Below, piece by piece: positions 502 to 954 of a stretch of DNA of 64,000 nt. The notes under the pieces are model-generated. The model made no database searches and had not been told where the DNA came from. It saw only the letters and a list, made by a program, of their open reading frames with translations. The stretch lies in assembly GCF_000738915.1 (NCBI RefSeq), contig NW_026515634.1:785156-849155 (forward strand), in the 5' to 3' direction. Every line of letters starts with the position of its first letter. Positions within the stretch are counted from its first letter, which is position 1. A program made the position numbers and the translations under genes. Source of the stretch: Nematocida ausubeli. Its lineage: Eukaryota.

Positions 502-954
502 ATGGAAGCAAATAAAACAGGAAGAAGATGGACTTTTACTGTAAATGGCGTGAATCTCAAACAAACAATTGAAGAAAGGCTTAGGAAAGACAAAAGAGTA
601 AGATATTGCATCTTTAATGTGTTCAAAAAAGACAAAATAATAATAAAAGGATATATTGAGTTTAAAACCTCAGTCAAAAAAACAGGAGTTTACAAAGTGC
701 TTGGACTAAGTATACACGTGAAGGTTCTAATTGAAAGAAGAGAAAGAGAAGAAATAATAAAAGAAATTAAAGACCTCGCATACAGATGCGCAAGCAGCAC
801 AGTGGAAATAGGGGAAAGATACTTAAAAAAAGGAGGCAGACCAAGAAAGGACAAAAAGTCAGCAACTACTGCAGTCTTGAAGAATATGATAGACTTAAAT
901 AACTATTATATTGTCACATCCTTAAGAACCGAGTTTGACATATTCTACTACTAG
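502..954 (+). CDS. CRESS-DNA-virus (circovirus/nanovirus-type) Rep endonuclease-domain-like protein, degenerate, with C-terminal AT-hook-like motif
   Basis: RRWTFTVN resembles RCR motif I (RRWxFTLNN). RYCIF...IIIKGYIEFK resembles motif II (PHLQGYIEF). These are followed by VYKVLG and AYRC...VEIGE at Viral_Rep-like spacing, then KKGGRPRK. No helicase domain. Confidence 0.6.
   Translation: MEANKTGRRWTFTVNGVNLKQTIEERLRKDKRVRYCIFNVFKKDKIIIKGYIEFKTSVKKTGVYKVLGLSIHVKVLIERREREEIIKEIKDLAYRCASSTVEIGERYLKKGGRPRKDKKSATTAVLKNMIDLNNYYIVTSLRTEFDIFYY

What the first reader, a model, noticed from the sequence alone, without database searches (positions are those of the whole stretch)
502..954. Endogenous CRESS-virus Rep-like gene, catalytically degenerate, with an AT-hook: possible domesticated DNA-binding protein
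Seen: an intact 150-aa ORF containing RRWTFTVN, RYCIF, KGYIEFK, VYKVLG and EIGE in order, then KKGGRPRK. Known: circovirus/nanovirus Rep N-termini carry motif I (WxFTLNN), motif II (PHLQGY/FIEF) and motif III (YCSK), followed by EiG and an SF3 helicase; GRPRK is the AT-hook core. Here the metal-binding HxQ is replaced by IIK, motif III is reduced to AYRC, and the helicase is missing, yet the frame is open. Inference: a ssDNA-virus-derived origin-binding fold retained by a microsporidian as a non-nicking DNA-binding factor, which would also be a trace of a virus infecting this lineage.
Basis: partly seen in the sequence, partly recalled or inferred. Interest (0 to 1): 0.85.

Follow-up and report, generated by a model that had tools for sequence, protein, structure and literature searches.

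The report
Virus nicking gene tamed by microsporidia
A group of tiny fungus-like parasites of worms has kept, in all ten sequenced species and at the same chromosomal spot in the two most distant ones compared, a gene derived from the DNA-cutting protein of small circular DNA viruses that has lost its cutting residues and likely now works as the parasite's own DNA-binding regulator.

Summary
The ORF (502-954, +, 150 aa) is real and belongs to Nematocida ausubeli. It is the HUH endonuclease domain of a CRESS-DNA-virus Rep. Support: profile-profile probability 99.2, E 7.6e-20; a model folded from Nematocida sequences alone matches circovirus and nanovirus Rep structures. Orthologues occur in all 10 Nematocida species named in Wadi 2023 and form one clade that follows the species split. 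The gene order is shared with N. displodere. The catalytic His and Tyr are gone in 12 of 12 members, the other three catalytic positions in 11 of 12, and there is no helicase. Two corrections: 'AYRC' is not motif III (the catalytic Tyr aligns to E88), and the 'AT-hook' is an invariant but non-canonical GGRP[RK] built on the viral linker. Conserved residues cluster where related Reps bind double-stranded DNA, so a non-nicking DNA-binding factor is likely. Binding and expression are untested. A virus of microsporidia themselves is plausible but not shown. I found no prior report in the library searched.

The parts
502..954 (+). Whole gene, 150 aa: catalytically dead CRESS-Rep endonuclease fold (aa ~5-104), basic GGRP arm, disordered tail
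514..546 (+). N-terminal tail and strand b1 (motif-I region), K5-T6-x-R8-R9-W10-x-F12. T6, R8, R9 are kept in 12 of 12 members and K5 in 11 of 12; the motif-I Thr in only 2 of 12. Predicted part of the dsDNA-recognition surface.
   Evidence: role by analogy with RepB
622..663 (+). Degenerate metal site: F41 in place of the ligand Glu, I47-I48-K49 in place of HUQ, followed by the retained GYIEF strand b3
   Evidence: ligand roles from PMC7826260 passages
670..702 (+). End of b3 and helix a2 (aa 57-67). K59, T/S61, G62, K65 and L67 are kept in 12 of 12 members. Equivalent of the RepB 'recognition helix' (inferred).
715..741 (+). Strand b4, equivalent of the ssDNA bridging motif; its His is kept in 81 of 84 intact Reps and 0 of 12 Nematocida proteins
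745..786 (+). Helix a3, the true motif-III position (E88 = catalytic Tyr, D91 = Lys).
805..816 (+). EIGE, matching the viral GPF/W-E-Y/F-G strand b5; G104 invariant
826..849 (+). KKGGRPRK: AT-hook-like arm. [KR]GGRP[RK] occurs in 14 of 14 proteins and aligns on the viral Q-G-x-R-x-D-L linker that precedes the oligomerisation domain.
856..951 (+). Unconserved, low-confidence C-terminal tail (pLDDT under 50); full proteins range from 121 to 602 aa across the family

Best explanation
This is an old, domesticated copy of the nicking domain of a CRESS-DNA-virus Rep protein, kept in all ten sequenced Nematocida species without its catalytic residues or helicase, and it likely works as a nuclear, non-cutting protein that binds double-stranded DNA at specific sites. 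Shown: Rep ancestry; loss of the metal triad, catalytic Tyr, ssDNA-docking His, oligomerisation domain and helicase; one clade; shared gene order across the deepest split compared. Inferred: a single capture before the genus diversified. Inferred: the N-terminal K-T-x-R-R tail and helix a2 read bases, as the same elements do in plasmid RepB, AAV Rep and papillomavirus E1. Inferred: the GGRP[RK] arm, remodelled from the viral linker, grips a neighbouring AT-rich minor groove. Inferred: the variable tail recruits partners, which would make the protein a transcription or chromatin factor of the parasite.
For: Homology: hhalign 99.2%, E 7.6e-20 over 110 columns. The AF2 model from 16 Nematocida-only rows has pLDDT 77-94 over aa 1-110; Foldseek ranks 1-9 in the PDB are CRESS Reps (7kii E 8.5e-5, rmsd 2.8; 6h8o E 9e-5). 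ESM Atlas gives Viral_Rep 0.95 and TM 0.63-0.78 (one source). Inactivity: positions invariant in 84 of 84 intact Reps (Glu, His, Gln/His, Tyr, Lys) are kept in 1, 0, 1, 0 and 1 of 12 Nematocida proteins. Retention: orthologues in ausubeli, parisii, ironsii, major, minor, displodere, homosporus, cider, ferruginous and botruosus (strain-to-species names), with 18 invariant columns in 16 rows. The clade has 100/100 support against 8 Reps; Parisii group 91/89, Displodere group 78/60. Nine Pfam-named neighbours have the same order and strand as after NEDG_00457 in N. displodere. Function: positions that vary among intact Reps (5, 6, 9, 61, 62) are fixed or nearly fixed in Nematocida. They lie on the N-tail and helix a2, which bind dsDNA independently of the active site in RepB (PMC9943647 passages). 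An NLS alone would not need invariant G-G-R-P (inference). No signal peptide or membrane helix is listed for NEIG_00317 or NEDG_00457.
Against: No binding, localisation or gene-specific expression data were obtained. The arm lacks the first Arg of the RGRP AT-hook core (0 of 14). The domain evolves faster than the average gene: 33% ausubeli-displodere and 48% ausubeli-parisii over aa 4-117, against genome means of 48.3% and 66%. The N. botruosus protein as annotated lacks 12 residues covering motif I, part of the proposed recognition surface. The dsDNA-binding surface is mapped by analogy to RepB, AAV Rep and E1, not from a CRESS Rep-dsDNA structure. dN/dS could not be computed.
Confidence: 0.6

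Rival explanations
1. Same viral origin and domestication, but the protein binds RNA or single-stranded nucleic acid, or serves as a protein-interaction scaffold, and the basic GGRP[RK]K stretch is mainly a nuclear-import signal.
For: The protein is strongly basic (35 K+R against 18 D+E). The HUH fold natively binds single strands. The AT-hook core is non-canonical.
Against: The ssDNA-docking His of strand b4 is lost in 12 of 12 and the motif-I Thr in 10 of 12. Conservation concentrates on the N-tail, helix a2 and GGRP.
Confidence: 0.2
2. It is an antiviral decoy: a dead Rep that sits on the origin of related ssDNA viruses and blocks their replication.
For: Inhibitory or non-enzymatic roles have been suggested for dead Reps captured by poxviruses (PMC10193959 passages). 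The putative origin-binding surface is retained.
Against: The oligomerisation domain needed to poison a Rep hexamer is absent. The putative specificity residues are fixed across species that share about 48% average identity, whereas chasing viruses should diversify them (inference). No such virus was found.
Confidence: 0.08
3. The donor was not a virus of the microsporidian. It was a virus or endogenous element of the animal host, or a capsid-less Rep element (bacterial circovirus-type plasmid or Replitron-like transposon). This rival concerns origin only and can hold together with the best explanation.
For: Endogenous CRESS Reps are widespread in animals, fungi and protists (PMC3198968 passages). 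Replitrons carry HUQ-type Reps without helicase. Circovirus-type Reps in bacterial elements were noted by earlier agents. The 84 nearest Reps are at most 34% identical, and the two I looked up have no name. The larger tree placed no particular Rep as sister.
Against: 67 of 84 nearest Reps have a Walker A motif, unlike Replitrons. With patterns from four of them, 72 loci were found in viral contigs and 0 of 42 candidate stretches were confirmed in 185,579 prokaryote genomes (narrow exact-pattern test). Of the 78 viral loci held, 77 are under 5 kb as fetched and 40 have a nonanucleotide stem-loop. This argues against a plasmid or transposon but cannot tell which organism the virus infected.
Confidence: 0.4
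4. It is a neutral viral relic (pseudogene-like) whose frame is open by chance.
For: No expression evidence for this gene was obtained, and it is less conserved than the average gene.
Against: An open frame with the same invariant residues persists in 10 of 10 species down to 32% identity. All 10 amino-acid variants at 9 sites among 8 other N. ausubeli sequences are conservative and miss the invariant columns. Codon use fits the other window genes best of 28 ORFs.
Confidence: 0.02

Closest known systems
Rep endonuclease domain of CRESS-DNA viruses, HUQ type (Pfam Viral_Rep PF02407; PDB 7kii duck circovirus, 6h8o/2hwt FBNYV nanovirus, 6wdz/5xor PCV2)
   Same: Fold, strand and helix order, W-x-F, GYIEF, K-x-x-LG and GPF-x-YG elements.
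   Different: No metal ligands, catalytic Tyr, ssDNA-bridging His, oligomerisation domain, helicase, origin or capsid; below the Pfam cut-off; the linker is changed to GGRP[RK].
apvRep-1/-3/-4 of avipoxviruses and U94 of HHV-6 (Kinsella and van der Hoek 2023, PMC10193959, passages read)
   Same: Captured Rep, endonuclease-only in apvRep-1/-3/-4, HUH and mostly Tyr inactivated, kept across a genus under selection, function unknown.
   Different: Those sit in other viruses; this is a chromosomal gene of a cellular eukaryote, with an added minor-groove-type arm.
Origin-binding domains of papillomavirus E1 and SV40 large T (PDB 1f08, 2itl) and plasmid pMV158 RepB OBD (8amu; PMC9943647, passages read)
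   Same: Same fold. RepB and E1 bind dsDNA through an equivalent helix, with an N-terminal tail in RepB, away from the active site. That E1 and large T lost nicking is recalled.
   Different: They remain replicon initiators attached to oligomerisation or helicase domains; sequence-wise the Nematocida protein is closer to CRESS Reps.
Endogenous CRESS Rep sequences of eukaryotes (Liu 2011 PMC3198968; Entamoeba/Giardia, Kinsella 2020 PMC7493932; yam EGV, Filloux 2015 PMC5014472; passages read)
   Same: Rep genes in host chromosomes, some expressed or under purifying selection, with co-option proposed.
   Different: In the passages read those are recognisable Reps close to known virus lineages (yam: over 1.4 My). 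The word 'microsporid' does not occur in Liu 2011 or Kinsella 2020/2023. Here the gene is too diverged for Pfam or BLAST annotation, catalytically erased and genus-wide.
AT-hook motif (HMGA/AHL type; core Arg-Gly-Arg-Pro, PMC8157401 passages) and GRPR arms of Hin/resolvase and Tc1/mariner proteins (recalled)
   Same: G-R-P followed by basic residues in an unstructured arm next to a folded DNA-binding-type domain.
   Different: Gly replaces the first Arg in all 14 proteins, and the motif arose in place from a viral linker.

Membership tests
CRESS-DNA Rep (active rolling-circle initiator) | HUH endonuclease fold | tested here: met
CRESS-DNA Rep (active rolling-circle initiator) | Motif I with conserved Thr | tested here: inconclusive
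   W-x-F kept in 11 of 12; Thr in 2 of 12, including the window protein
CRESS-DNA Rep (active rolling-circle initiator) | Metal triad Glu + HUH/HUQ | tested here: not met
   His 0 of 12, Gln/His 1 of 12, Glu 1 of 12
CRESS-DNA Rep (active rolling-circle initiator) | Motif III YxxK catalytic Tyr | tested here: not met
   Tyr 0 of 12, Lys 1 of 12
CRESS-DNA Rep (active rolling-circle initiator) | Oligomerisation domain and SF3 helicase | tested here: not met
   No Walker A in 12 of 12; tail unstructured
Endogenous CRESS provirus | Capsid gene and/or nonanucleotide stem-loop origin next to rep | tested here: not met
   No capsid among the window ORFs scanned. No NANTATTAC in a 7-bp stem in the window against 40 of 78 viral loci. 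The TATTATTAC at 1039-1047 folds no better than shuffles (z 0.04).
Domesticated (co-opted) viral gene | Orthology: one clade and conserved locus | tested here: met
   synteny checked for 2 other species only
Domesticated (co-opted) viral gene | Purifying selection | tested here: inconclusive
   Protein-level constraint is clear; dN/dS not computable without orthologue DNA
Domesticated (co-opted) viral gene | Expression as RNA and protein | not testable with these tools
   No runs listed; Cuomo 2012 supplements unreadable
Canonical AT-hook | Arg-Gly-Arg-Pro core | tested here: not met
   0 of 14; all have [KR]GGRP[RK]
Canonical AT-hook | Binding to the AT-rich minor groove | not testable with these tools
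   needs a binding assay
Replitron / Rep transposon | Intact Y1 HUH transposase, multi-copy, terminal hairpins | tested here: not met
   Catalytic residues absent; one copy in the window; fixed locus; definition from PMC10288648 passages

The most novel reading that the evidence does not exclude
A ssDNA virus once infected the ancestor of Nematocida. Its origin-binding domain, fitted with an AT-hook-like arm made from the viral linker, became an essential sequence-specific chromosomal factor (a promoter or replication-origin reader) in one of the most gene-poor eukaryote lineages. That would be a cellular transcription or replication factor born from a CRESS-virus Rep, and a fossil of a virus of microsporidia.
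Probability: 0.25. Interest if true: 0.9.

Novelty: new variant of a known kind. Interest (0 to 1): 0.74.

Why it matters
Microsporidia are known for shedding genes, so a virus-derived gene kept in all ten sequenced species of a genus is likely doing a needed job. It gives a 'hypothetical protein' of a laboratory model pathogen of C. elegans (NEPG_00099 in N. parisii) a fold and a testable function. It shows how a nicking enzyme can be turned into a probable DNA reader in a cellular genome, by erasing the active site and reshaping a linker into a minor-groove-type arm. It also records an old contact between a CRESS-DNA virus and this parasite lineage, for which I found no report in the library searched.

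Tried and rejected
Searches that gave nothing or only weak hits: Pfam on the whole ORF; single-sequence and two-sequence PDB searches (chance hits such as cofilin rejected); plasmid tblastn; direct scan of viral contigs with Nematocida motifs (261 pattern matches, none confirmed); scan with P0031. The single-sequence AlphaFold model (pLDDT 51) was not used. No RNA holder was listed, which is no evidence either way. No whole genome is held for the window, so copy number and the left flank were not checked directly. VIA-align never ran. The careful 96-row tree did not finish; one search is the quick tree, and the careful tree used 13 Nematocida-type rows and 8 of the 84 Reps. The metagenome scan was not run because the alignment had no usable pattern. 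Readings rejected: AYRC as motif III; a viral origin remnant at 1039-1047 (22 matches of the loose motif in the window against 15.6 expected; z 0.04); a helicase remnant beside the gene; a recent or strain-specific insertion. Literature: searches (microsporidia or Nematocida with CRESS, ssDNA virus or EVE terms; four locus tags) found no report; some searches were for background. Zhao, Lavington and Duffy 2021 and Londono 2010 (both recalled) are not held. Only 12 of 23 supplements of Wadi 2023 were searched and Cuomo 2012's were unreadable, so a listing there cannot be excluded.

Full report
Observation. The protein's 90% cluster has 9 members, the 8 others named Nematocida ausubeli hypothetical proteins. 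The rest of the window is ordinary chromosome: SPC12, DENN, SMC, subtilase, SPT3, proteasome subunit, Myb protein, NOP2 and ribosomal proteins. There is one copy in the window. GC and codon use are host-like; its synonymous-codon fit is the best of 28 ORFs compared.

What it derives from. On its own the protein is invisible to Pfam and to a PDB sequence search. The first 106 residues, two alleles and four orthologues reach Viral_Rep only below the cut-off (E 0.001-0.07), and six other family members scanned there do not reach it. Stronger tests agree. A three-sequence Nematocida profile over 1.84 billion representatives gave 94 hits: 10 Nematocida-type proteins at E 1e-19 or better, then 84 others from 3e-9 to 1e-3. 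All 31 of the 84 that I scanned pass Viral_Rep and 26 carry the SF3 helicase; 67 of 84 have a Walker A motif. The Nematocida profile against 12 of these Reps gives hhalign probability 99.2, E 7.6e-20. AlphaFold on a 16-row alignment of Nematocida proteins only gave a confident five-strand, three-helix domain (pLDDT 77-94 per block over residues 1-110, tail under 50). Its first nine PDB matches are CRESS Rep endonuclease domains, followed by papillomavirus E1, geminivirus Reps, RepB and SV40 T. 271 viral models match at E 0.001 or better. ESM Atlas concurs. The 16-row profile also picks the FBNYV Rep from the PDB by sequence (E 0.005).

What has been lost. In PCV2 Rep the metal is held by Glu48, His57 and Gln59, and Tyr96 is the nucleophile (PMC7826260, passages and section 14). 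The matching columns are invariant in 84 of 84 intact Reps. Among 12 Nematocida proteins they are kept 1 (Glu), 0 (His), 1 (Gln/His), 0 (Tyr) and 1 (motif-III Lys) times. The catalytic Tyr aligns to E88 in REEIIKEIKD, not to the Tyr of AYRC, which only N. ausubeli has. The His of the ssDNA bridging motif is present in 81 of 84 Reps and 0 of 12 Nematocida proteins. Oligomerisation and helicase domains are absent. I saw no helicase or capsid remnant next to the gene and no origin stem-loop. The protein cannot be a working initiator, and the locus is not a provirus.

What has been kept. Orthologues were found in N. minor, N. botruosus AWRm80, and N. major, parisii, ironsii, homosporus, cider AWRm77, displodere and ferruginous LUAm3. 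Three unnamed Logan proteins also belong. That covers all ten species named in Wadi 2023 (PMC10393165, passages and section 6). They form one clade against all 84 Reps (quick tree, SH-aLRT 99) and against 8 Reps in a careful tree (100/100). That tree also recovers the Parisii group (91/89) and, weakly, the Displodere group (78/60). N. major and N. minor swap places relative to the order implied in Wadi 2023, at modest support. In the N. displodere gene table (PMC4928854 supplement 3, part 5) NEDG_00457 is followed by SPC12(+), DENN(+), SMC2(-), subtilase(+), SPT3(-), DUF5092(-), PSMB7(-), Myb(+) and NOP2(+). These are the same nine markers, order and strands as in the window, which has two extra ORFs before SPC12. 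N. ironsii shares the left-hand neighbours with N. displodere and has the right-hand block inverted about 25 kb away (PMC5423893 supplement 5, part 3). One insertion before the deepest split is the simplest reading; those groups share about 48% average protein identity. The domain is less conserved than average (33% ausubeli-displodere, 48% ausubeli-parisii), yet 18 columns are invariant. The 10 variants seen among N. ausubeli sequences are conservative. No degenerate member outside Nematocida appeared; a more diverged one could have been missed.

How it likely works. The invariant surface-type residues fall in three places: K5-T6-x-R8-R9 before motif I; K59-x-T/S61-G62-x-x-K65 at the start of helix a2; and [KR]GGRP[RK] after the last strand. 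Positions 5, 6, 9, 61 and 62 vary among the intact Reps but are fixed or nearly fixed in Nematocida. In pMV158 RepB the N-terminal tail and helix a2 read dsDNA in the major groove independently of the active site, and AAV Rep and papillomavirus E1 use an equivalent helix (PMC9943647, passages). Geminivirus specificity is likewise assigned to a short domain next to motif I (PMC2974675, passages). The GGRP[RK] motif occurs in 14 of 14 proteins. It sits on the viral Q-G-x-R-x-D-L linker (G.R.D in 68 of 84 Reps; GRP[RK] in 1 of 84) and reuses its Gly and Arg. It lacks the first Arg of the RGRP AT-hook core (PMC8157401, passages), so it is AT-hook-like, closer to the GRPR arms of resolvases and mariner transposases (recalled). 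I therefore infer a nuclear, non-nicking protein that recognises a fixed dsDNA site with the Rep fold and anchors in a flanking AT-rich minor groove. The variable tail (492 S/T/P-rich residues in N. botruosus) would serve as the effector part. I put this at about 0.6; origin and domestication alone at about 0.95. Against it: there are no binding or expression data, the hook is non-canonical, the annotated N. botruosus protein lacks the motif-I segment, and the surface mapping is by analogy.

Whose virus. The nearest intact Reps are at most 34% identical and no sister lineage is resolved. Patterns from four of them found 72 loci in viral contigs and none in prokaryote genomes. The 78 viral loci held are small and 40 have a nonanucleotide stem-loop. 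A viral donor is thus likelier than a bacterial plasmid or a helicase-less Replitron (PMC10288648, passages), but an intracellular parasite could have taken the gene from a virus of its host. The claim of a microsporidian virus stays open.

Comparison and novelty. Catalytically dead, endonuclease-only CRESS Reps under selection are known in avipoxviruses (PMC10193959, passages). Endogenous, sometimes expressed Reps are known in many eukaryotes (PMC3198968, PMC7493932, PMC5014472, passages). Earlier agents of this scan noted dead Rep domains in a giant virus and in plastids (unchecked). The kind is therefore known. New here are the host lineage, the depth and completeness of the domestication in a nuclear genome, and the hook-like arm made from the viral linker. 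Searches found no report; the two published gene tables list the orthologues as plain hypothetical proteins. One broad survey I recall (Zhao 2021) was not held and some supplements could not be seen.

Verdict. A real feature and a new variant of a known kind; interest 0.74.

Noticed in passing
window 1021-1070: TATTATTAC (1039-1047, minus strand) lies in the 34-nt loop of an 8-bp perfect inverted repeat, 85 bases after the stop. It resembles a CRESS origin nonamer, but folds no better than shuffles (z 0.04) and the loose motif is at chance level in the window.
   Followed up: yes
window 2547-5255 (-) and 53836-56619 (-): Two ORFs of about 900 aa without Pfam hits share 70% DNA identity over 1.6 kb. 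They are probably members of a Nematocida large gene family (not tested). The first is absent between NEDG_00457 and SPC12 in N. displodere.
   Followed up: partly
window 6630-7770: The DENN gene carries many in-frame copies of a short repeat (HSVKSN-like) and is 2568 bp against 2019 bp in N. displodere. A separate ~270-bp intergenic repeat just upstream (6092-6333) recurs inverted at 34043-34314.
   Followed up: no
window 49714-50198 and 57236-57719: A 485-bp direct duplication at 92% identity.
   Followed up: no
protein P0011 (N. botruosus, NEOKW01_1873): As annotated it lacks 12 residues covering motif I and has a 492-aa tail that is 36% S/T/P with 20 S/T-P sites; a true deletion or an annotation or assembly slip.
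   Followed up: partly
cluster of P0001: Three N. ausubeli assemblies list two entries each (NEAUS04, 05, 06). They may be alleles of a heterozygous diploid rather than paralogues.
   Followed up: no
NEDG_00453 / NEIG_00312 (gene tables; outside the window): A reverse-transcriptase (RVT_1) gene is conserved in place a few genes left of the Rep-derived gene in two species; possibly telomerase, not tested.
   Followed up: no
ESM Atlas, rank 24: An unnamed 71-member cluster, 68% eukaryotic and commonest in Ascomycota, scores 0.92 with this protein; perhaps another endogenous or domesticated Rep family in fungi.
   Followed up: no
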